The notes under the pieces were generated by a model. It was not told the DNA's origin and searched no databases. It worked only from the letters and a program-made list of their open reading frames with translations. The translations under genes were made by a program, and so were the position numbers. A stretch of 64,000 nt of DNA, from IMG/VR virus record IMGVR_UViG_3300030101_004109; one strand, written 5' to 3'. How positions within the stretch are numbered: the first letter of the stretch is position 1; each line of letters opens with the position of its first letter. Source of the DNA: an uncultured virus (IMG/VR IMGVR_UViG_3300030101_004109). Taxonomy: Duplodnaviria; Heunggongvirae; Uroviricota; Caudoviricetes. Of this stretch, positions 40,122 through 63,264 are shown one piece after another.

Positions 40122-40490
40122 TTATCGCGGGAAGCCCCGCCCTCTTTTTTCTAAAGAGTATTGGTGAGATTTGGCATCAAAAGCATCTACAAAAGCTTTT
40201 ACAGCTTTTTCATGGTCAAAAGGTTTGCAGCTAAATATATCTACGAAGCAAAAGCCCTTTTCTTGAAAAGTATGGATAGAACAGTGGCTCTCGGCCAACA
40301 CAACCACACCTGTCACGCCATGATCTTCTGGCACTTTGCCCGAATAATAAAATACCGAAGGCTCGGATATTCGAGTCATGCCGATACTTTCAGGTAAGTT
40401 AAGTAAGATAGTACGCACTAAATCAAGGTCTCCCAATAAGTCGGGAGAGCACTCACTAAGGTCTAACAGCAAATGCGGCCCGAAATACAT
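40122..40490 (-). CDS. speD: Pyruvoyl-dependent AdoMet decarboxylase family proenzyme
   Basis: FGPHLLLDL, GVTGVVVLAESHCSIHTF self-cleavage motif, VDIFSCKPFD; true start at MYFGPH. Confidence 0.92.
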   Translation of the reverse strand: MYFGPHLLLDLSECSPDLLGDLDLVRTILLNLPESIGMTRISEPSVFYYSGKVPEDHGVTGVVVLAESHCSIHTFQEKGFCFVDIFSCKPFDHEKAVKAFVDAFDAKSHQYSLEKRGRGFPR

Positions 40491-40491
40491 G

Positions 40492-41028
40492 TTATTCCCA
40501 GTGCAGCTTGTATACAATAAGGGTGCGCGGGCGGCCCGTAGAGGTAACGTAAGTCTCTTCTGACTTTTCTGCCCTAACGATAGTAAGGGTTTTTTCAAAG
40601 TCAGGCCCGATAACCTTAGCTACCCGGTCTGTCTCCAGGGCGGCGGACACAATTTGTCCGGTAATCTTGCCCACCCGAATAAAGCCGCTCTCAGCGTCCA
40701 GGGCGTTGATCCCGTTTGCGTGGGGTAGATCCCTGCGCGGGTCGTCAGCGTCCATCATACGGCCCAGGATGGCCCCTTCTGCGGGGACTACGAACTCGGT
40801 GAACCGGTAGGCGTCGTACCCCTCGGGACGGCCCGTCACCCACTCCAGATACATACCAAAGTTACGGCCACATTCAGACTGCATAAAAGCGTCGGAAGCC
40901 TTGATAAGCTCACACTTACCTGCCCAGGACTCTTTCAAATGCTGAAAGTAGGGCTCTTGGCAGTCTTCGTACTTCTGCCCCATTGGGTAGGAGTTAAGGT
41001 AAAGTCTATTGGGGATTCGAGTTGTCAT
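40492..41028 (-). CDS. Hypothetical protein upstream of speD
   Basis: GGAG RBS, own promoter-like element, stop 1 nt before speD start. Confidence 0.7.
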   Translation of the reverse strand: MTTRIPNRLYLNSYPMGQKYEDCQEPYFQHLKESWAGKCELIKASDAFMQSECGRNFGMYLEWVTGRPEGYDAYRFTEFVVPAEGAILGRMMDADDPRRDLPHANGINALDAESGFIRVGKITGQIVSAALETDRVAKVIGPDFEKTLTIVRAEKSEETYVTSTGRPRTLIVYKLHWE

Positions 41029-41109: not shown

Positions 41110-44106
41110 TTAAGTCACGTCTTTCAAGGTGCGGCCCGTCGAGGCTTCTCCCGAAATAGGAAACTCCCACCCTGGTATGTTCAAGGTGAAGGCGTCTTCA
41201 AATATTTCTTCTAACTCTCGGATCTCTTTTGGTAAATCTGAGCGTTTGTAGTATTTCACTTTCTCTGGTTTGTACACATCCTGGGGTTTCCAATACCGAG
41301 GCAAGTCAGAAGGCAAAGCCCATTCTACGGCAATAGAATCGTGGCATTGATAAATTATACCCGTACCGGGTCCTGTTTGGTCCCTTGGAAAGCGTTTCTC
41401 AATACGGCCTTCGATCATAGCCATAATCTCTGGCTCAGTTGCCAAAACACCAAAGTTAACTGCCTTGTTTACGTCGTCGCCTAAGTTGCCTGATTTGCGA
41501 TTGAATAAGTAAGACTGCACATAGCCGTTATCGCGGTAAAAATCTTGCTCTTTTTGCCACGCCATTTCCCATTCTGGCTGGCCCCTAAGCCAAGCTTCAT
41601 GCAGTTTTACAACTTCAAGGGGCTTCATGTGCATGTAAGGCATGGACTTCTGGATGATGCCAAAAATATCTAGCTCAATCGTACCTTCTTCTAAACCTCT
41701 GTGCCAGTTATCGGGAAGGTCAAACTCCGTAGCTGTAAGCACACGCCAAACGGTTGCAGGGGAAGCGCCGTATACAGAAGCGTATATAAAGATTTTGATT
41801 GTGTTCCGCATAGCATCGGCGGTGCTTCCGGGGTCGGGCTTTTTCTTCAGCCCGTTATACCCTTGGGCTCCTGTGAACCTTTTGCCGAATGTCGTATATG
41901 CGTTGTAGTTGTGCGGATCATAGCCTTTTCGGATTGCTTCGCATAGTGCGGGAATCTTCCACACGTTAGCGATAATAAATAAGTGGGCTTGGTTTACGTC
42001 CGCTCCATAAAATACTCTACCGGGAGGCGCCGCAAAAACCTTCTTCAGCGGACCCTGGCCCTTTTTATTACCGATGTTCTGTACGTTAGGTCCTCGGCTG
42101 CTGTATCTACCGACGTTAGTTAGATGCGCCGAAAAGGAAGAATGTATCCTGTTGTCGGGATAAAGGAATGACTTTGTAAATCCTTTGCTCCTACCGTTTC
42201 TGCCCATAATCAGCTTTTCCGGCGCCAAGGGTCTTAGCGTCGTTCCGACAATCTTACCCCGAATACGACGGAAAACCCGCACAAGCTGCATGATCTCAGC
42301 TTGTTTGCGGTTAAGAACGCCCGATGCGATGTAATGCCTGTGGACAACATCGGACGTAGACAAGTCACCGTTAGTGGTAAGAAAGTCTTTCTTGCTGTAA
42401 ATCGGCTCCCCGTCGTCATCTTTAATGCCTGATTCCCACAACGGAGGCAAGTCCCATTTGTCAAAGTACAACCAGCGCAAATGACGGGTAGAGTTGGGGT
42501 TCATTTCATCGCCAGAAATCTCTTCCTGGCTCAGATAAATGCCCTCTGCCTGCAGTAACCGTTGTAGCCGGTTCCAAATATATGTGTACTCTTCAACCCC
42601 TTTTGCCTCTAACGAACCGCGCTTTGCTTGATCAATCCACAAGCCAACCTTCGTCATACGAACGCCGCGATCTTGCCGCTCATGGTCAATATCACAAAGA
42701 GAAGGTACACCTGGGTGCGGCCACCAATCAAGCGTTAGGTATTCTTCTTTAATGGGACCGAAGTAGCCTGTAGCAGAAGCAAGCCGACGCAGCTCAGGCC
42801 AAATCTTTAAGTTTACTTGAACGTCCGTTCCGTTGTACTTTAACAGCTCTGCGTCATCTGTAGAGCCTGTAGCAATAGACTCTTCCTTGTCATCGCTGTC
42901 CCACTCACCTACATCACAGTAAGTTCTACCTGTAGGCTTTAGACCTTTGGGGATAGAAGGGTTTGCAGCACGAGCAGGAAGGATCGTATCTAGTAAAGGT
43001 GTAGGAGTTACGTAAAAGTTTGCTTCTACGTTTAATCTATCGAACTGCCCTGCGTTGTGCCCGATCTTCAGTACACTTTCATCCGTCAGCAGCTCACAAC
43101 ATAAAGCGATTATTTCTTTCTCTTCTGCTTCCGAATAAAAGCGCGTGACACCATCAGTCGAAAGAAGTGATATACAAGCAAGCTGAATAGGACCATCTTC
43201 AATGCCATCTTCCCAACGCGCAAAAGCAATCGTTCGCATAGGGATTTGGGAAGGTCTAAGTCCTTGTCGGTGCTTTGGCGTTTCAACGTCATAACAGATG
43301 ATAGGTTTTGTAAACTGATGCGCCTTTCGGCCCGAATGAAACGTAGGTTTTATGTCTGCAATCCACTGTGCAAACTCAGCCGGTGTGGGGCGCCATAGTA
43401 TATCAGACGGTTCTTCCCAGTTTAGCGCGTTATTTGTGAACCGCAAAAACTTTCTAATGTCATGGATCCACCTATCGAAGTAGGCTGGAGACCTATCTAC
43501 ATAGCCGGGACTATACGTAGGTAGCAGCTTTCTGTGAAAGCCTTCGTAATCTTCACTAACCTTGTTCCACTGTCCGTCAACCTTCCACGGACTGCCCCGA
43601 ACTTTTTTAATGCCTCGGCGAACACCAGTTAAAGACTGGGTAGCGACCTTACCAAACGTAAGAATATTGTCGTATTTATCTACAGCTTTAAGTAATCGGG
43701 GCCTGCAGCACTCTTCGGGGTGTGGAACAGAATCTAATCCGTCTGCGTTACGCCTTTTATTTAGCCGCTTTAACTTATCTTCCATACGACGATAGGCCCC
43801 ATTGACGGGGCCAGGAGGTCTGCACGCTAAAACAGATGTTACGGAAAAATCATCCCGCTTGCCTTTCAACTCCCACAAAGCTCTAAGCCAGGGGCCGCCT
43901 ACCTCAGAAGAAGAAAAGTAATGCTCGCTTCTCTCATCTTCTTTGTTAGGCGCGTCAAGCACTACAATAGATTTTGCTCCATCGTAGTGCTCTGTTTTAA
44001 TCGGGCGCCAATCAAATGAAAATGTTTTTAAGTCCCCGTAAGGCCCAAGGGGGCATCGGTCACACTCAGCGCCATCACACGTGGGATCGTACCCCATTGT
44101 TGCCAT
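41110..44106 (-). CDS. polA: Family A DNA polymerase with N-terminal UDG-family-4-like domain and 3'-5' exonuclease
   Basis: CDRC/CRP/EECC UDG-like cysteines; YDVET, GHNAGQFD, YNGTD exo motifs; GRYSSRGPNVQNI; motif A GADVNQAHL, motif B RNTIKIFIYASVYG, motif C CHDSI. Confidence 0.93.
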   Translation of the reverse strand: MATMGYDPTCDGAECDRCPLGPYGDLKTFSFDWRPIKTEHYDGAKSIVVLDAPNKEDERSEHYFSSSEVGGPWLRALWELKGKRDDFSVTSVLACRPPGPVNGAYRRMEDKLKRLNKRRNADGLDSVPHPEECCRPRLLKAVDKYDNILTFGKVATQSLTGVRRGIKKVRGSPWKVDGQWNKVSEDYEGFHRKLLPTYSPGYVDRSPAYFDRWIHDIRKFLRFTNNALNWEEPSDILWRPTPAEFAQWIADIKPTFHSGRKAHQFTKPIICYDVETPKHRQGLRPSQIPMRTIAFARWEDGIEDGPIQLACISLLSTDGVTRFYSEAEEKEIIALCCELLTDESVLKIGHNAGQFDRLNVEANFYVTPTPLLDTILPARAANPSIPKGLKPTGRTYCDVGEWDSDDKEESIATGSTDDAELLKYNGTDVQVNLKIWPELRRLASATGYFGPIKEEYLTLDWWPHPGVPSLCDIDHERQDRGVRMTKVGLWIDQAKRGSLEAKGVEEYTYIWNRLQRLLQAEGIYLSQEEISGDEMNPNSTRHLRWLYFDKWDLPPLWESGIKDDDGEPIYSKKDFLTTNGDLSTSDVVHRHYIASGVLNRKQAEIMQLVRVFRRIRGKIVGTTLRPLAPEKLIMGRNGRSKGFTKSFLYPDNRIHSSFSAHLTNVGRYSSRGPNVQNIGNKKGQGPLKKVFAAPPGRVFYGADVNQAHLFIIANVWKIPALCEAIRKGYDPHNYNAYTTFGKRFTGAQGYNGLKKKPDPGSTADAMRNTIKIFIYASVYGASPATVWRVLTATEFDLPDNWHRGLEEGTIELDIFGIIQKSMPYMHMKPLEVVKLHEAWLRGQPEWEMAWQKEQDFYRDNGYVQSYLFNRKSGNLGDDVNKAVNFGVLATEPEIMAMIEGRIEKRFPRDQTGPGTGIIYQCHDSIAVEWALPSDLPRYWKPQDVYKPEKVKYYKRSDLPKEIRELEEIFEDAFTLNIPGWEFPISGEASTGRTLKDVT

Positions 44107-52029: not shown

Positions 52030-52989
52030 CTATTCAAGCAAATAAGCAAGCATCAGGGGCAACACAATAGTTGCGTCTGACTGTATCGCAAACTTAGGGG
52101 TTTTGTGGGATACCTTATCCCACGTAATCTTTTCGTTAGGAGGGGCGCCCGAGTAACCCCCATAGGAAGCTGGGGCGTCTCCGATCTGACAAAAGTAATC
52201 CCAGTGCGGGACCTTTTTATTTTCATCTTGGCGCAAAGACGGCACTACACAAATAGGCCAGTCTCCTGCTATACCTCCCCCTATCTGTAAAAAGGCGGGG
52301 CCGTACCCTGTTGCGTATACGTGGGTTTCATACCATTTAGCGAGAGTTTCAAACTGTTCTGCATCGCTAACTACTGCATTGTAGCCTTGCTCTACTTCAC
52401 CTTTTTTAACGCTCACCGTAAACATATTACCTGTTGTACTGTCGCTCCAACCAGGGACAAACACAGGCACATCATATTCGTGACAAGCCGCTACCCAAGA
52501 CTCTTTTAACCTGGGCATATCGGTGTTCGTCGCCTTCATGGCTTTCAAAGCGTTACACATATGATAATAGGGTGAGTTGCCTGGGGCCCCGTTCCAAGAC
52601 TTTAGCAGCAAGGCCCAAATGTTATTCATAACATTTTCGGGTATGCAAACATCTGTCACACGGTTCCACCCTTCAGCAGCCAAAACTTCTTCGTCTTCCC
52701 CCGATAAGTTTCTCCAATCTATTTGCTTGTAGCGGGCTCCTTCTACAGCATTAAACACATCTTCTTCTATGTTAGCGCCTGTACAACACACAGCACCGAT
52801 CAAGCCTCTTTCAATAGCAGGCACTAAAAGCTTACCCATACGAGCGGTACTCATAGCACCTGCCAATGTAATAAATATTTTGTTTCCTTTGTTAATCTGG
52901 TTCTTTAACTCTTGCAGAGCCGCACGAGTTTCACCTGCATTAAAGTGCAAAAAGTGATTATCTATCAAACTGTTTATTCGCATAAACAC
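52030..52989 (-). CDS. Deoxyhypusine-synthase-like protein (bacterial SpeY/homospermidine synthase type)
   Basis: HFLHFNA, TLAGAMST, CTGANIEED, NRVTD, QIGGGIAGD, SGAPPNEKITWDK, SDATIVLPL. Confidence 0.92.
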   Translation of the reverse strand: MFMRINSLIDNHFLHFNAGETRAALQELKNQINKGNKIFITLAGAMSTARMGKLLVPAIERGLIGAVCCTGANIEEDVFNAVEGARYKQIDWRNLSGEDEEVLAAEGWNRVTDVCIPENVMNNIWALLLKSWNGAPGNSPYYHMCNALKAMKATNTDMPRLKESWVAACHEYDVPVFVPGWSDSTTGNMFTVSVKKGEVEQGYNAVVSDAEQFETLAKWYETHVYATGYGPAFLQIGGGIAGDWPICVVPSLRQDENKKVPHWDYFCQIGDAPASYGGYSGAPPNEKITWDKVSHKTPKFAIQSDATIVLPLMLAYLLE

Positions 52990-60329: not shown

Positions 60330-60688
60330 ACTACCCCCTTGTTTTCTTCAAACCACGTATCGAGAAGATTGTAAGCACTGTACGTACCGTCAGGGCCCCA
60401 GCAATTAGGGTTGTCGTGAAGTTCCTGCAGTTCCCCCAAAGCTTCCCCGAAAACAGGGGACCCCTTGATAATTTTATTCCTCACCATAGAGACCGCTGAC
60501 ATACCTTTCTCAAAGTCATCATGGTACTTACTGTCAGGAATCATTAGGCCGATGAAGCATTTAGCCCCAGCTGCACCACGGTAAGCGCATTGGCTTCCAC
60601 GGGTATTTCTCAGTTGGGATCGCTTCCCCCCTGCTTCAAGGTGGGCCTTTACTTTATTGTATGCGTCTTCAATCGTAAAAATAATCAT
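60326..60688 (-). CDS. Hypothetical protein (paralog 2)
   Basis: CAYRGAAGAKCFIGLMIPD...LQELHD; GGAGG RBS before MIIFT. Confidence 0.7.
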   Translation of the reverse strand: MIIFTIEDAYNKVKAHLEAGGKRSQLRNTRGSQCAYRGAAGAKCFIGLMIPDSKYHDDFEKGMSAVSMVRNKIIKGSPVFGEALGELQELHDNPNCWGPDGTYSAYNLLDTWFEENKGVV

Positions 60689-61206
60689 GCTACCTCCAAA
60701 GTATTCATATGTTCGTGCCACCACTGTGGGGGCTCTCTCTTACTCCAAACTGCGAACCGTGCCTTCTCCCCCATGTAGTACGCCCTGTAGGCGTCTACTG
60801 CGTTGTCTCGTTTGTATTTGTCGGGCATAGCTTGAGCAAACGGGGTTGCGTCGTAGTTGTCAAAGGCCATTTCGAGATCCAGGCCAACGGCCCAGTCAAT
60901 TACTGCTTGTGACTTGTGTACCTTACCATAACGGTGTGTGTACTCAGATGCAAGGGACAAACCATGAATCAGCAACCAATGATAGTTAAACAATGACTGT
61001 CGAGCCCACACAGTACATGGATGGTTGACATAGGCTTTTTTGTACGGAATATCAGCAGGGTCAATATCAAGCTTACCATCTTCACTCAAAACATGAACCG
61101 CTGAGCAAAGCATCTGCGCAGTTTCAAGTGTCATCTTTACAACATGCTTATTGCATAGCTGTCGAGCGGCAAGCTCAGGGTTTGTGTGCACTACAAAAAT
61201 ATTCAT
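60685..61206 (-). CDS. Pyrimidine-dimer DNA glycosylase / DenV-like protein
   Basis: MNIF...KHVVKM.LETAQML...NHPCTVW...EYTHRYGKVH...QAMPD. Confidence 0.85.
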   Translation of the reverse strand: MNIFVVHTNPELAARQLCNKHVVKMTLETAQMLCSAVHVLSEDGKLDIDPADIPYKKAYVNHPCTVWARQSLFNYHWLLIHGLSLASEYTHRYGKVHKSQAVIDWAVGLDLEMAFDNYDATPFAQAMPDKYKRDNAVDAYRAYYMGEKARFAVWSKREPPQWWHEHMNTLEVA

Positions 61207-61225
61207 TACTCTCTCCAAGTTAAAG

Positions 61226-61302
61226 TGGTGGGCCTTCTGGGGCTCGAACCCAGGACAATCCGGTTATGAGCCGGGTGCTCTGACCAACTGAGCTAAAGGC
61301 CC
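61226..61302 (-). tRNA. tRNA with CAT anticodon, likely Ile2 (reads AUA after lysidine); encoded CCA
   Basis: GGGCCTT acceptor, CT-CAT-AA loop, GTTCGAG T-loop. Confidence 0.9.
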
Positions 61303-61307
61303 TTATT

Positions 61308-61484
61308 CTATGTCGGGCACTCGATCATAGCGCCTTCTGTATAAGAGGGTTTCTTTCTTACTTCGACAGATCCTTCGGATGTTTCTACGATGCAAGTGTT
61401 ATCTTCACACCTGTCGATTACACATTTAGGCTTAATGGTTTCTGTCTTAGCTGTCAATGATGAAAACAAAAATAGTACAAACAT
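61308..61484 (-). CDS. 58-aa DUF3006-like protein with hydrophobic N-terminus (not in ORF track)
   Basis: TAAGGA RBS; MFVLFLFSSL...VIDRCEDNTCIVE. Confidence 0.55.
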   Translation of the reverse strand: MFVLFLFSSLTAKTETIKPKCVIDRCEDNTCIVETSEGSVEVRKKPSYTEGAMIECPT

Positions 61485-61504
61485 TTTATTTCCTTAGAAT
61501 TTAG

Positions 61505-61577
61505 TGGGTCCAGTGGGATTCGAACCCACGACCATCGGTTTAAAAGACCGGTGCTCTACCAACTGAGCTATAGACCC
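61505..61577 (-). tRNA. tRNA-Lys(TTT)
   Basis: Cloverleaf, CT-TTT-AA loop, GTTCGAATCC. Confidence 0.93.
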
Positions 61578-61581
61578 GAAG

Positions 61582-61664
61582 TGGGCGAGGCGGGAATCGA
61601 ACCCGCATGACCTACGGCCGGGAGATTTTAAGTCTCATGTGTCTACCAATTCCACCACTCGCCC
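61582..61664 (-). tRNA. tRNA-Leu(TAA)
   Basis: GGTGGAATTGGTAGACAC D-arm, CT-TAA-AA loop, long variable arm. Confidence 0.93.
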
Positions 61665-61670
61665 GTGGTA

Positions 61671-61886
61671 TCAGTCGCGGTCAATCCGCTGAATGATCAT
61701 AATGGTTTCGCCGTCTTCTACAATGTTGACGGGTTCCGTCCATTGTTTGTTTTCTTTTACATACTTTGTCAAGGCGGCGCCCTTTAGATCGGCTGGGACC
61801 TGTAGGATGCTGGCCCCACTCAGGTAGCCGAACGTGGTTCCGTCGTCAAGGATGATTACAAAATCGCTTTCCATTTTTCTCTCCAA
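61671..61886 (-). CDS. Hypothetical protein (start likely MESDF)
   Basis: GGAG RBS, between tRNAs. Confidence 0.55.
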   Translation of the reverse strand: MERKMESDFVIILDDGTTFGYLSGASILQVPADLKGAALTKYVKENKQWTEPVNIVEDGETIMIIQRIDRD

Positions 61887-61896
61887 TGAAGTTAAG

Positions 61897-61970
61897 CGCC
61901 CCGGATAGGGATCGAACCTATGACATTCGGCTTAGAAGGCCGATGCTCTATCCAACTGAGCTACCGAGGC
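61897..61970 (-). tRNA. tRNA-Arg(TCT)
   Basis: Cloverleaf, CT-TCT-AA loop. Confidence 0.93.
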
Positions 61971-61979
61971 AAAAAGGTA

Positions 61980-62033
61980 GCACACTTTAACCGGTGTGCC
62001 AGCGATGTTCTTCCATCCACCCCGTAGAACATC
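61980..62033 (-). ncRNA. Structured RNA motif, copy B
   Basis: 8-bp stem with CGGGGTGG in its loop, then CGCTG and a GCACAC/GTGTGC hairpin. Confidence 0.6.
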
Positions 62034-62150
62034 ACAGAGGACTGAGATCGAGGGATCAGTCTTATGACAGGTATTTGACTGGCACCATTTTTCAGTCTAC
62101 AGGTTAACTAAAAAACAGGGTATTACTTTTACATCATACCCCAAAAGAGG

Positions 62151-62230
62151 GGCACACTTTAACCGGTGTGCCAGCGGCTTTGGCTGCTAACCCCCTATCC
62201 CCCAGGAGCCACCCCGCAAGGTTAGCAGCC
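62151..62230 (-). ncRNA. Structured RNA motif, copy A
   Basis: 11-bp stem with CGGGGTGG in its loop, then the same 25-nt element as copy B. Confidence 0.6.
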
Positions 62231-62244
62231 CAATACTTTTACGG

Positions 62245-62622
62245 TCAGTTTGTTCCTTTAAGGTATTGGTCAATACTACCCTTTGTCAATCCAAAATCTT
62301 CAGAAAGAATCTTTACAATGTGTTTTCTCGGCGTTCCCTCCTTTCGCATTTCTGCCGCTTCGAACCTAATACGGTCACGCTGTTCATAGTTTTTATCAAG
62401 CAAGCTAATCAACTTGTTTGAATTGCCCTCAAGCTCTACTCTATATTCTCCTGTATCTACAAGTTGGTCAAACGCTTTACTTACGTAGTACCTTAGCGTA
62501 GATCGCTTTAGTTTTTGAAACGCCCGCTTGGCCGTAAGTGCCGAGATAGCTTGCGGGGTCGTAACACCTGCGTCAGACATTGACGTAGTAATAAGTTTGG
62601 CAGCTAAATCTATCTGTTTCAT
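62245..62622 (-). CDS. Hypothetical DNA-binding (HTH-like) protein
   Basis: GAGG RBS; basic helical; FGLTKGSIDQYL. Confidence 0.6.
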   Translation of the reverse strand: MKQIDLAAKLITTSMSDAGVTTPQAISALTAKRAFQKLKRSTLRYYVSKAFDQLVDTGEYRVELEGNSNKLISLLDKNYEQRDRIRFEAAEMRKEGTPRKHIVKILSEDFGLTKGSIDQYLKGTN

Positions 62623-63144: not shown

Positions 63145-63264
63145 CTTTTTCTATCGAGTCCGGCGAGGGCTGATCCCTCACCCTATGACATTGAAACAGC
63201 TTCCCAGCTACCCCAATGTCAAGGGGTGAATGTTCAGCGGCGCTTACGATAAGGGCGGTAAAAC

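What the first reader, a model, noticed from the sequence alone, without database searches (positions are those of the whole stretch)
61980..62230. Duplicated structured RNA with fully exchanged stem sequences upstream of the tRNA cluster
Seen: an identical 25-mer GCACACTTTAACCGGTGTGCCAGCG at 61980-62004 and 62152-62176. Each copy is next to a stem of entirely different sequence (GATGTTCT/AGAACATC versus GGCTGCTAACC/GGTTAGCAGCC) whose loop holds the same CCACCCCG. Minus-strand model: P1[CGGGGUGG]-CGCUG-P2[CGGUUAAA]. Conserved loops with swapped stems suggest selection on RNA structure. It is not a tRNA. Inference: a protein-binding decoy such as an RNA-antitoxin mimic (compare pseudo-ToxI of phage phiTE), or a processing element co-transcribed with the tRNAs.
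Basis: partly seen in the sequence, partly recalled or inferred. Interest (0 to 1): 0.72.

Follow-up and report, generated by a model that had tools for sequence, protein, structure and literature searches.

The report
Widespread phage RNA pseudoknot, terminator-like
The repeated 25-base sequence is two copies of a small, very conserved RNA pseudoknot found between genes in many uncultured phages, which looks like a leaky transcription stop or RNA-end signal and marks spots where small gene or tRNA units are gained and lost.

Summary
In detail: the 25-mer is exact at 61980-62004 and 62152-62176, and each copy sits beside a different hairpin whose loop holds CCACCCCG. The interpretation needs revising. 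On the minus (coding) strand, the 25-mer is the core of a ~27-nt H-type pseudoknot, 5'-CCG-CU-GGCANAC-CGG-UYAAA-GUNUGCC-3', usually followed by RCY-UUUU. More than 130 distinct copies occur in IMG/VR phage contigs, in a few MAG contigs and in Xanthomonas phage XAJ2. Both helices covary: 90 of 90 unbiased copies keep the 3-bp pseudoknot helix, and all 8 variants compensate. No Rfam family matches, and no paper in the library holds the sequence. Copies are few per genome. They run in the same direction as the genes, 6-10 nt after stop codons (often of SSB genes), before ribosome-binding sites, or 7-8 nt before the first tRNA of an array. Contigs of sibling strains lack exactly the 172 bp between the window's two copies. 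My best reading is a leaky intrinsic terminator or RNA 3'-end module that also acts as a recombination boundary for small cassettes, similar to PeSLs. The neighbouring "exchanged stems" are optional local hairpins, and their shared 8-mer occurs only in this window. Nothing supports an antitoxin mimic. Function is inferred, not shown.

The parts
62151..62177 (-). Pseudoknot copy B (core 27 nt). S1 5' strand CCG 62177-62175; L1 CU 62174-62173; S2 5' strand GGCACAC 62172-62166; S1 3' strand CGG 62165-62163; L3 UUAAA 62162-62158; S2 3' strand GUGUGCC 62157-62151.
   Evidence: Sequence read. Covariance model R1 scores it 58.4 bits, E 1.9e-12. Family covariation.
62141..62150 (-). Tail of copy B, CCUCUUUUGG (U-tract). 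It overlaps the 5' arm of the next hairpin.
   Evidence: Flagged as terminator-like on the minus strand. The family tail consensus is RCY-UUUU.
61979..62005 (-). Pseudoknot copy A (core 27 nt). S1 5' strand UCG 62005-62003 (U.G wobble); L1 CU 62002-62001; S2 GGCACAC 62000-61994 with GUGUGCU 61985-61979 (closing G.U); S1 3' strand CGG 61993-61991; L3 UUAAA 61990-61986.
   Evidence: Sequence read. R1 scores it 50.0 bits, E 2.4e-10.
61971..61978 (-). Tail of copy A, ACCUUUUU. It is the 8-nt spacer to base +1 of tRNA-Arg(UCU) at 61970.
   Evidence: The same 7-8 nt spacing to a tRNA is seen in L006, L011, L013 and L018.
62179..62233 (-). Variable hairpin B. It has 14-nt arms and a 27-nt loop holding CGGGGUGG at 62216-62209, directly 5' of copy B. 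It starts 11 nt after the stop codon (62247-62245) of the 125-aa ORF.
   Evidence: (I11) and the folds. A sibling-strain contig (X2 record 14) covers 62148-62230 with only 3 different letters.
62004..62033 (-). Variable hairpin A. It has 8-bp arms GAUGUUCU/AGAACAUC and a 14-nt loop holding CGGGGUGG at 62024-62017. Its last two pairs use U62005 and C62004, which are also the S1 5' strand of copy A.
61980..62151 (-). The 172-bp unit between the two repeats, which is present or absent between strains. It contains copy A, hairpin A, a further hairpin plus U-run (62142-62110) and no plausible ORF.
   Evidence: Contigs in runs X2 and X4 join 61975 to 62148 and 61979 to 62152, skipping 172 bases, and 25 letters fit both sides of the joint.
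62110..62142 (-). Ordinary terminator-like hairpin inside the unit: GGGGUAU...AUACCC followed by UGUUUUUU.
   Evidence: Folds (-8.6 kcal/mol). The sequence was read.
61896..61970 (-). tRNA-Arg(UCU), the first of four phage tRNAs that follow copy A.
   Evidence: 70.6 bits.

Best explanation
The duplicated 25-mer is two copies of an undescribed, phage-borne ~27-nt H-type RNA pseudoknot, transcribed from the minus (coding) strand. A 7-bp G+C-rich stem (GGCANAC/GUNUGCC) carries a loop. The first three loop bases (CGG) pair with the CCG that lies two bases 5' of the stem, and an A-rich UYAAA strand closes the knot. An RCY-UUUU tail follows. I read it as a leaky intrinsic terminator or RNA 3'-end-forming module. 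It ends or attenuates the upstream transcript and leaves it with a compact 3' cap. Read-through RNA carries the next gene or tRNA array, which RNase P or RNase E would then cut free (inferred). Because the copies are nearly identical, they also serve as recombination boundaries at which small gene, tRNA or non-coding units are gained and lost. The 172-bp unit between the window's copies is one such unit. Shown here: the motif, its pseudoknot covariation, its strand, its positions and the strain-level indel. Inferred: termination, 3'-end protection and the recombination mechanism.
For: Family and structure:
- The exact 20-mer occurs in 29 IMG/VR loci with unrelated flanks.
- With the stem left free, 38 of 100 unique pattern matches have 6 of 6 stem pairs, and the other 62 scatter at 1-5 pairs. 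Real variants are GCAGAC/GUCUGC, GCACAC/GUGUGC, GCAUAC/GUAUGC, GCAGAU/AUCUGC and GCAGGC/GUCUGC.
- With the flank and loop left free, 90 of 90 unique copies form all three S1 pairs, and all 8 non-consensus copies compensate: GCG/CGC four times, CCC/GGG, UCG/CGA, CGG/CCG, and UUG/CGG by wobbles. The control three bases further upstream gives 8 of 90.
- Among 125 covariance-model hits, 99.8% of 1215 cells are paired and 7 of 10 pairs show double changes. No shuffle of 500 reaches this, and slid registers give 28-41%. S1 was not modelled as pairs.
- G.U pairs occur only in the sense orientation.

Terminator-like anatomy:
- Both window copies are flagged on the minus strand.
- Stem energies are -11 to -14 kcal/mol.
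- 102 of 132 copies have at least 4 U in a 6-nt window just after the stem, against 10 of 132 at +60.
- 95 of 133 copies follow a sense ORF, and in 46 of those 95 the stop codon lies 6-10 nt before the motif.
- Sense-strand ORF ends and starts flank the motif (29 and 27 of 60), against 1 divergent start.
- A sigma-70-like promoter follows in 9 of 131 copies, against 0 upstream.

Module boundaries:
- The layout SSB-PK-(ORF-PK)n-UvsX is seen in L002, L005, L007, L008 and L024. L008 and L024 differ by one methyltransferase unit after the same motif.
- The motif precedes the first tRNA of arrays, not every tRNA.
- Sibling-strain contigs lack exactly the 172 bp between the window's copies.
- Copy number is low: 2 in this 64-kb window and 1-5 in five records of 31-395 kb.
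Against: - No transcript data exist for any copy, so termination is untested.
- In the window region, terminator-like sites overall are not more frequent than in shuffles (5 found, 3.2 +/- 1.5 expected).
- The U-tract starts 2-4 nt after the 7-bp stem, which is not ideal for a terminator. 30 of 132 copies lack it, for example L002 and the L030 family.
- Where the motif lies 7-8 nt before a tRNA and directly after an ORF (L018, L033), the tRNA can only be made by read-through. Any termination there must be partial.
- A plain terminator needs neither a conserved loop, nor a pseudoknot, nor the invariant GGCA/UGCC base. Near-identity across very different phages suggests a specific partner that this model does not name.
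- The motif follows SSB genes of four PHROG families in 7 of 24 upstream ORFs tested. That enrichment is not predicted by a generic terminator.
- The strain indel could be a simple deletion between direct repeats rather than cassette traffic.
Confidence: 0.45

Rival explanations
1. The motif is a translational operator of the T4 gene 32 type. The pseudoknot would be a nucleation site from which the phage SSB spreads 3' along the unstructured U/A-rich tail over the next ribosome-binding site. This would tie translation of the downstream gene (UvsX recombinase, exonuclease and others) to the level of free SSB.
For: - 7 of 24 tested upstream ORFs are SSBs from four PHROG families: 1192, 9002, 112 and 7011. 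Four more phrog_1192 SSBs lie just upstream in L002, L005, L007 and L008.
- In Xanthomonas phage XAJ2 the motif lies upstream of a hypothetical-recombinase-SSB gene row.
- The T4 operator is described as a ~28-nt pseudoknot followed 3' by an unstructured stretch with UUAAA/UAAA repeats and the RBS (PMC535899, passages read).
- Here a 27-nt pseudoknot is followed by U/A-rich sequence, and the start codon lies 19-35 nt downstream in 16 of 27 cases.
Against: - The motif lies 3' of the SSB gene, not 5' as in T4.
- The SSBs belong to unrelated families, which would hardly share one specific RNA target.
- Many copies have no SSB nearby, including both copies in this window.
- Several copies precede tRNAs, which are not translated.
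- The tail is short for cooperative binding.
Confidence: 0.15
2. The motif is a factor- or ligand-responsive attenuator (riboswitch-like). The pseudoknot would compete with a longer terminator stem that brings the U-tract flush to the helix. A conserved host factor or small molecule that stabilises one form would then set read-through into recombination genes and tRNA arrays.
For: - The unpaired positions (L1 CU, L3 UYAAA) and the stem base GGCA/UGCC are near-invariant across phages from many habitats. This fits a universal partner.
- G3 of the S1 strand can instead pair with the conserved C at +2 of the tail, extending the stem. This is possible in 76 of 132 copies, against 17-36 of 132 at control offsets, and it appears in the minimum-energy fold of L038.
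- tRNAs placed 7-8 nt downstream require regulated or partial read-through.
Against: - The downstream genes are heterogeneous, unlike a riboswitch regulon.
- The stem extension is absent in 56 of 132 copies.
- L3 varies from 5 to 11 nt in diverged copies, which argues against a tight pocket.
- No ligand is suggested by any result.
Confidence: 0.1
3. The motif acts on DNA. The hairpin would form in single-stranded DNA as a priming, helicase-loading or recombination signal, or the conserved 27 bp would be the target of a site-specific or homing enzyme that moves the flanked units.
For: - The motif sits in replication and recombination gene neighbourhoods with SSB, UvsX, recombinase and exonuclease genes.
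- An HNH endonuclease gene lies in L011.
- Indels end exactly at the motif.
- Sequence identity far exceeds what RNA structure alone needs.
- G.T wobbles are tolerated in DNA hairpins as well.
Against: - The motif is co-oriented with transcription.
- It is placed precisely between a stop codon and an RBS or tRNA.
- A U-tract follows it.
- A three-base pseudoknot helix with perfect compensation is typical of RNA tertiary folds and is not known to me for DNA signals (recalled).
- No recombinase or endonuclease gene is consistently adjacent.
Confidence: 0.1
4. This is the first reader's model: a two-stem structured RNA (variable P1 with conserved loop CGGGGUGG, then CGCUG, then P2). It would act as a protein-binding decoy such as an RNA-antitoxin mimic, in the manner of pseudo-ToxI.
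For: - The shared 8-mer in two unrelated loops of 14 and 27 nt is unlikely by chance. My estimate from loop sizes is about 0.002, not a tool result.
- Some other tRNA-linked copies also have a closing stem directly 5' of the motif: L006, L012 and L013.
Against: - CGGGGUGG lies upstream of only 2 of 133 copies, both in this window.
- Most copies have no P1 at all.
- One of the two units is absent in sibling strains.
- There is no tandem array.
- No ToxN-like or other defence or toxin hit is found in six neighbouring ORFs or in Pfam.
- No ToxI or other Rfam hit is found at E up to 10.
Confidence: 0.03

Closest known systems
PeSLs (promoter-early stem-loops), the composite terminator/promoter motifs of T4-type phages. 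Sources: Arbiol et al. 2010, PMC2839356 (search listing only); Comeau et al. 2014, PMC4122927 (passages read).
   Same: - Short conserved intergenic stem-loop modules lie between small, variable ORFs in plastic regions.
- Indels between closely related phages end at the motif. Here a 172-bp unit is missing in sibling strains, and L008 and L024 differ by one gene after the same motif.
- A minority of copies are followed by a sigma-70-like promoter whose -35 reads TTTACA or TTGACA (9 of 131).
   Different: - PeSL stem-loops differ between phage pairs and are defined together with a promoter. This motif is nearly identical across unrelated phages, including a Xanthomonas phage and MAG contigs of several phyla.
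- It mostly lacks a promoter.
- It has a covarying pseudoknot and conserved loop bases.
- There are 1-5 copies per genome, not dozens (the dozens figure for PeSLs is recalled).
Translational operator of T4/RB69 gene 32, an SSB-binding RNA pseudoknot (PMC535899, passages read).
   Same: - It is a compact phage pseudoknot of ~27-28 nt followed 3' by unstructured U/A-rich RNA that reaches a ribosome-binding site.
- It is linked to SSB genes.
- The geometry is similar, with a 7-bp second stem crossed by a 1-2 nt loop. The T2/T4 geometry is recalled, not taken from a call.
   Different: - No sequence likeness was tested or claimed.
- This motif lies after the SSB gene, or before tRNAs and unrelated genes.
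- It is followed by a U-tract.
- It occurs with four different SSB families.
- Binding is untested.
Rho-independent (intrinsic) terminators
   Same: - A G+C-rich hairpin on the coding strand is followed by a U-run, close behind stop codons.
   Different: - Ordinary terminators are not conserved in sequence between distant genomes and have no pseudoknot (recalled).
- Here the loop pairs with the 5' flank.
- The U-run starts 2-4 nt after the stem.
- tRNAs follow within 8 nt.
Candidate structured RNAs of IMG/VR phages (PMC10690425, abstract and passages read).
   Same: - That survey of IMG/VR intergenic regions reports 8495 covarying candidates. It predicts terminators in 1241 of them, and 12 lie upstream of GP32 genes. 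This motif may be among them.
   Different: - I could not check this. The supplementary files that could be searched do not hold the sequence. Files 1 and 2 held no searchable text and file 4 was also not searched.
- No pseudoknot of this kind is described in the passages read.

Membership tests
   At gathering thresholds the window yields only 4 tRNAs. Region 61850-62350 at E up to 10 yields only tRNA-Arg and an 18.6-bit antisense hit on the tRNA. Eight motif-bearing loci at E up to 1 give 36 matches, none at a motif position.
ToxI / pseudo-ToxI RNA antitoxin | Tandem array of short (~36-nt) repeats next to a toxN-type toxin gene (features recalled) | tested here: not met
   There are two copies 172 nt apart and no further copy in 64 kb. 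Six neighbouring ORFs have no PADLOC hit, and no toxin family appears in Pfam.
H-type RNA pseudoknot | Two helices in which loop bases of the first hairpin pair outside it, with both helices supported by compensatory change | tested here: met
   S1 is kept in 90 of 90 unbiased copies, with 8 of 8 variants compensated. All three S1 pairs and 4 of 7 S2 pairs show double changes, and 99.8% of cells are paired.
H-type RNA pseudoknot | Loop lengths able to span the helices | not testable with these tools
   L1 is 2 nt across a 7-bp stem and L3 is 5-11 nt across a 3-bp stem. I judge this feasible by comparison with recalled pseudoknot geometry. No 3D model was made.
Intrinsic terminator | G+C-rich hairpin followed by a U-tract on the transcribed strand | tested here: met
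   Both window copies are flagged. 102 of 132 family copies have the U-run, against 10 of 132 in the control. Stem energy is -11 to -14 kcal/mol.
Intrinsic terminator | RNA 3' ends form at the U-tract | not testable with these tools
   No RNA run was listed that holds the stretch. This says nothing either way.
PeSL (T4-type mobile regulatory cassette) | Stem-loop combined with an early sigma-70-type promoter | tested here: not met
   A promoter-like site lies within 100 nt downstream in only 9 of 131 copies. None lies at the window's copies.
PeSL (T4-type mobile regulatory cassette) | Indels between close relatives end at the motif, and the motif flanks small variable ORFs | tested here: met
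   Sibling-strain contigs skip 172 bp between the copies. L007 shows SSB-PK-ORF83-PK-ORF437-PK-UvsX, and L008 differs from L024 by one unit.
T4 gene 32 translational operator | Pseudoknot plus unstructured UUAAA/UAAA-rich stretch located 5' of the SSB gene's own start | tested here: not met
   The motif lies 6-24 nt 3' of the SSB stop codon in the 7 loci and downstream of the SSB gene in the 4. Only in XAJ2 is it upstream of a gene row that includes an SSB.
T4 gene 32 translational operator | Specific binding by the SSB | not testable with these tools

The most novel reading that the evidence does not exclude
The motif may be a new class of very small (27-nt) regulatory pseudoknot shared by many unrelated phages. 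It would sense a conserved partner, either free single-strand-binding protein or a universal host factor or metabolite, by switching between the knot and a longer terminator stem. That switch would gate read-through from the SSB gene into recombination genes and into phage tRNA arrays. Its near-identical sequence would also make it a portable landing pad for gene cassettes.
Probability: 0.15. Interest if true: 0.85.

Novelty: new variant of a known kind. Interest (0 to 1): 0.62.

Why it matters
If this reading holds, a 27-nt RNA fold with near-invariant sequence is shared by uncultured phages from many sampled metagenomes and by a cultured Xanthomonas phage, yet it is absent from Rfam and from the searchable literature. 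It would be one of the smallest well-supported natural pseudoknot motifs. It would give a concrete, testable handle on two open questions in phage biology. The first is how expression is insulated or attenuated at the borders of SSB/recombination genes and tRNA arrays. The second is how small accessory units are shuffled between phage genomes. Practically, it is a compact candidate terminator or insulator part and a marker for plastic regions in phage contigs.

Tried and rejected
- Whole genome: none is held for this window.
- Close relatives by DNA: the 1.5-kb region, L038 and L013 matched INPHARED phages only through tRNAs or not at all.
- Relatives of the 125-aa ORF in IMG/VR: none found.
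- Expression: no RNA holder was listed, so no statement on transcription is possible.
- Decayed tRNA inside the 172-bp unit: a 19-nt stretch (62051-62069) resembles the T-arm region of tRNA-Arg. However, 32 of 1000 shuffles reach the local alignment score and the other three tRNAs score at chance. This stays a weak hint only.
- Sigma-54 promoter (CTGGCAC-N5-TT..): rejected from the sequence. The -12 GC is AA, and a promoter would not explain the stem and pseudoknot covariation. The consensus is recalled.
- Sigma-70 promoter inside the motif: none was flagged at the window's copies.
- UG27 reverse-transcriptase ncRNA arrays (bioRxiv 10.64898/2026.09.22.753630, section 9 read): rejected. Those units have little sequence conservation and sit beside an RT, and no RT appears among the 30 window ORFs scanned with Pfam.
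- A crude longest-open-frame test of strand was uninformative. I replaced it with the start/stop test, whose 'convergent' count (12 of 60) is probably inflated by stop codons in the reverse complement of the U/A-rich tail.
- A heuristic count of hairpins directly upstream was not calibrated and is not used.
- Literature: exact-sequence strings matched 0 papers. Word searches found no description of this motif.
- Supplements of PMC10690425: no hit in the files that could be searched. Files 1, 2 and 4 were not searched.
- Earlier findings of this scan: nothing related.
Full report
**1. The observation**

The window is a phage genome fragment. It encodes portal, terminase, family-A DNA polymerase and helicases. 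From about 36.8 kb to its end, the long ORFs lie almost all on the minus strand, as do four tRNAs: Met, Lys, Leu and Arg at 61226-61970.

The 25-mer is exact at 61980-62004 and 62152-62176. No other match exists with up to 3 mismatches, and 0 of 100 shuffles gave two matches. The repeat extends to 35 nt at 89% identity (D3). Both neighbouring hairpins and the shared CCACCCCG (62017 and 62209) are present as described. No Rfam family matches the region, even at E up to 10.

**2. What the 25-mer is**

Read on the minus strand, the exact 20-mer hairpin occurs in 29 IMG/VR loci with unrelated flanks.

A pattern that fixed only CCGCTG and the loop, leaving the stem free, gave 100 unique matches. 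The result is bimodal: 38 have 6 of 6 stem pairs and the other 62 scatter at 1-5 pairs. The real copies use GCAGAC/GUCUGC, GCACAC/GUGUGC, GCAUAC/GUAUGC, GCAGAU/AUCUGC and GCAGGC/GUCUGC. The last has a G.U pair, which would be a C.A mismatch on the other strand. CCGCUA...GUGUGCU variants show a seventh pair.

A second pattern left the first three loop bases and the 5' flank free. All 90 unique copies pair the flank triplet with the loop triplet:
- CCG/CGG in 82 copies.
- All 8 departures compensate: GCG/CGC four times, CCC/GGG, UCG/CGA, CGG/CCG, and UUG/CGG by wobbles.
- The triplet three bases further upstream pairs in only 8 of 90.

The motif is therefore an H-type pseudoknot: 5'-CCG(S1)-CU(L1)-GGCANAC(S2)-CGG(S1')-UYAAA(L3)-GUNUGCC(S2')-3'.

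I built a covariance model from 132 copies with only S2 given as structure. It finds just the two copies in the window, at 58.4 and 50.0 bits, with the next hit at 10.8 bits.

The model finds 125 hits in 94 sources. These include diverged copies that no pattern had selected: L1 = AU, L3 of 10-11 nt, a GGCAGGC/GCCUGCC stem, and a UCG/CGA knot. On that alignment:
- 99.8% of 1215 cells are paired.
- 7 of 10 pairs show changes on both sides.
- No shuffle of 500 reaches any measure.
- Slid registers give 28-41% pairing.

The earlier count on alignment A1 was made on copies pre-selected for pairing and is not independent evidence.

**3. Distribution**

In 596 Gb of prokaryote genomes the strict pattern has only 11 hits, all on MAG contigs of scattered phyla. 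The element is therefore phage-borne, not a host repeat.

Two records in the GenBank phage collection carry it:
- an unverified 'Bacteriophage sp.' record;
- Xanthomonas phage XAJ2, where a GCG/CGC copy lies in a 190-nt gap upstream of a hypothetical-recombinase-SSB gene row.

Copy number is low in the five records searched whole: 1 in a 395-kb genome, 3 in a 191-kb genome, and 2-5 in three fragments of 31-47 kb.

No paper in the library holds the sequence. The supplementary files of a large IMG/VR RNA survey that could be searched do not hold it either, but files 1, 2 and 4 were not searched.

**4. Context**

I compiled 133 distinct copies, selected for full pairing in both helices and for the conserved GCA at the base of S2.
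- 95 follow a sense-strand ORF of at least 25 codons that ends within about 50 nt. In 46 of those 95 the stop codon lies 6-10 nt before the motif.
- The tail consensus is R-C-Y-U-U-U-U. 102 of 132 copies have at least 4 U in a 6-nt window just after the stem, against 10 of 132 at +60.
- Among 60 copies with at least 400 nt on each side, 29 have a sense ORF ending upstream and 27 have a sense ORF with a Shine-Dalgarno sequence starting within 80 nt. Only 1 has a divergent start.

Neighbouring gene families:
- I gave PHROGs 24 of the 37 distinct upstream ORFs, leaving out near-duplicates. Seven are single-strand-binding proteins of four families: phrog_1192 three times, 9002, 112 twice, and 7011.
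- I gave PHROGs 40 of the 98 ORFs around GCACAC-type copies. Four more phrog_1192 SSBs and four UvsX-like recombinases appeared.
- This shows the layout SSB-PK-(ORF-PK)n-UvsX in L002, L005, L007, L008 and L024. L008 and L024 differ by one methyltransferase unit behind the same motif.

In tRNA regions the motif precedes the first tRNA of an array by 7-8 nt and does not recur between tRNAs. This is seen in L006, L011, L013, L018, L033 and in copy A of the window.

A sigma-70-like promoter follows in 9 of 131 copies. The controls give 0 upstream and 1 antisense.

**5. The window's two copies**

Copy B (62177-62151) follows variable hairpin B, which starts 11 nt after the stop codon of a 125-aa ORF of unknown family.

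Copy A (62005-61979) follows hairpin A and ends 8 nt before tRNA-Arg.

Contigs from two other runs, about 90-96% identical to the window, join 61975 to 62148 (X2) and 61979 to 62152 (X4). They skip exactly the 172 bp between the repeats, and 25 letters fit either side of the joint. These relatives therefore have one motif, with hairpin B, directly before tRNA-Arg.

The X2 contig covers 62148-62230 with 3 differing letters, against 41 in the 428 nt of the adjacent ORF. It also carries about 228 other letters where the window has 62231-62246 (table 8).

The 172-bp unit has no plausible ORF. It contains an ordinary hairpin plus U-run at 62142-62110. It shows only a weak likeness to tRNA-Arg: 32 of 1000 shuffles score as well.

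The loop 8-mer CGGGGUGG occurs upstream of 2 of 133 family copies, both here. It is a local feature and not part of the family.

**6. How it most likely works**

Shown: the fold, the strand, the positions and the indel.

Inferred: the hairpin plus U-tract acts as an intrinsic terminator. Both copies are flagged and stem energies are -11 to -14 kcal/mol. It must be leaky, because tRNAs and genes follow within 8-35 nt with no room for a promoter.

The knot would then cap the 3' end of the upstream RNA, whether after termination or after RNase P/RNase E cutting of read-through RNA. The near-identical copies would be the substrates for gain and loss of the units between them, as proposed for PeSLs in T4-type phages.

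Points against this reading:
- 30 of 132 copies lack the U-run.
- The U-run starts 2-4 nt after the stem.
- A plain terminator needs neither the knot nor the invariant bases.
- The enrichment behind SSB genes is unexplained.

One further pattern may matter. In 76 of 132 copies, G3 of the S1 strand can instead pair with the conserved C at tail position +2. This lengthens the stem up to the U-run. Controls at other offsets give 17-36 of 132. It suggests two competing folds and keeps a regulated-attenuator reading open.

**7. Rivals**

- A gene 32-type operator. The T4 operator is a ~28-nt pseudoknot followed by an unstructured UUAAA/UAAA-rich stretch and the RBS. That fits the anatomy and the link to SSB genes. 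It does not fit the position 3' of the SSB gene, the diversity of SSB families, or the tRNA contexts.
- A DNA-level signal. This fits the neighbourhood and the indels. It does not fit the co-orientation with genes, the U-tract or the three-base knot.
There is no array, no toxin and no family-wide P1.

**8. Verdict**

Its function is inferred. The closest known things are PeSL cassettes by behaviour and the gene 32 pseudoknot by shape, and it fails a defining feature of each. I rate it a new variant of a known kind, with interest 0.62.

Noticed in passing
L006:3021-3232, L013:3336-3571, L011:2781-2990: Three large-phage contigs share a non-coding unit of about 210-250 nt (it begins CACAYAUGCUCACCRCCAACAUAGGGYCCGAGUA and contains GCUAAUGAUGUUGGAAA). 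The unit lies between two pseudoknot copies just before a tRNA array. It has no Rfam hit at E up to 1 in L006 and L013; L011 was not scanned. It may be an unnamed phage small RNA.
   Followed up: partly
window 52030-52989 and 40122-40598 (minus strand): The phage encodes a deoxyhypusine-synthase-family protein (Pfam DS, 1.2e-40) and an S-adenosylmethionine decarboxylase (AdoMet_dc, 6.8e-29). These are polyamine-related auxiliary genes.
   Followed up: no
window 41110-44106 (minus strand): The 998-aa family-A DNA polymerase carries an N-terminal uracil-DNA-glycosylase-superfamily domain (Pfam UDG, residues 45-216).
   Followed up: no
window 63169-63238: An inverted repeat with 25-nt arms (80% complementary, 20 nt apart) lies in the 246-nt gap upstream of the 99-aa ORF. 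It may be another structured or regulatory element on the minus strand.
   Followed up: no
window 62231-62246, as seen in runs X2 and X4: Sibling-strain contigs differ just 5' of hairpin B. X4 skips 14 nt (62230 to 62245). The X2 contig carries about 228 other letters in place of 16. This is a second indel hotspot at the edge of the same element.
   Followed up: partly
L272 (Xanthomonas phage XAJ2) 2400-2445: About 60-100 nt upstream of the XAJ2 pseudoknot, the gap holds ACGTTAAAGGGCAGACGTTAAAGGCAGG. This repeats pieces of the motif (GCAGAC, GTTAAAG) and may be decayed copies or a related site.
   Followed up: no
L135:748-825 (minus strand): Two pseudoknot copies stand in tandem only 10 nt apart (TTAAA and TCAAAA loop variants) between an ORF and the next gene.
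   Followed up: no
window 60685-61218 and L021:2606-3070: The DenV-like pyrimidine-dimer glycosylase (phrog_624, about 1e-60 in both) lies about 0.8-1.5 kb downstream of a pseudoknot copy in the window and in L021. This hints at a shared plastic region in otherwise unrelated contigs.
   Followed up: no
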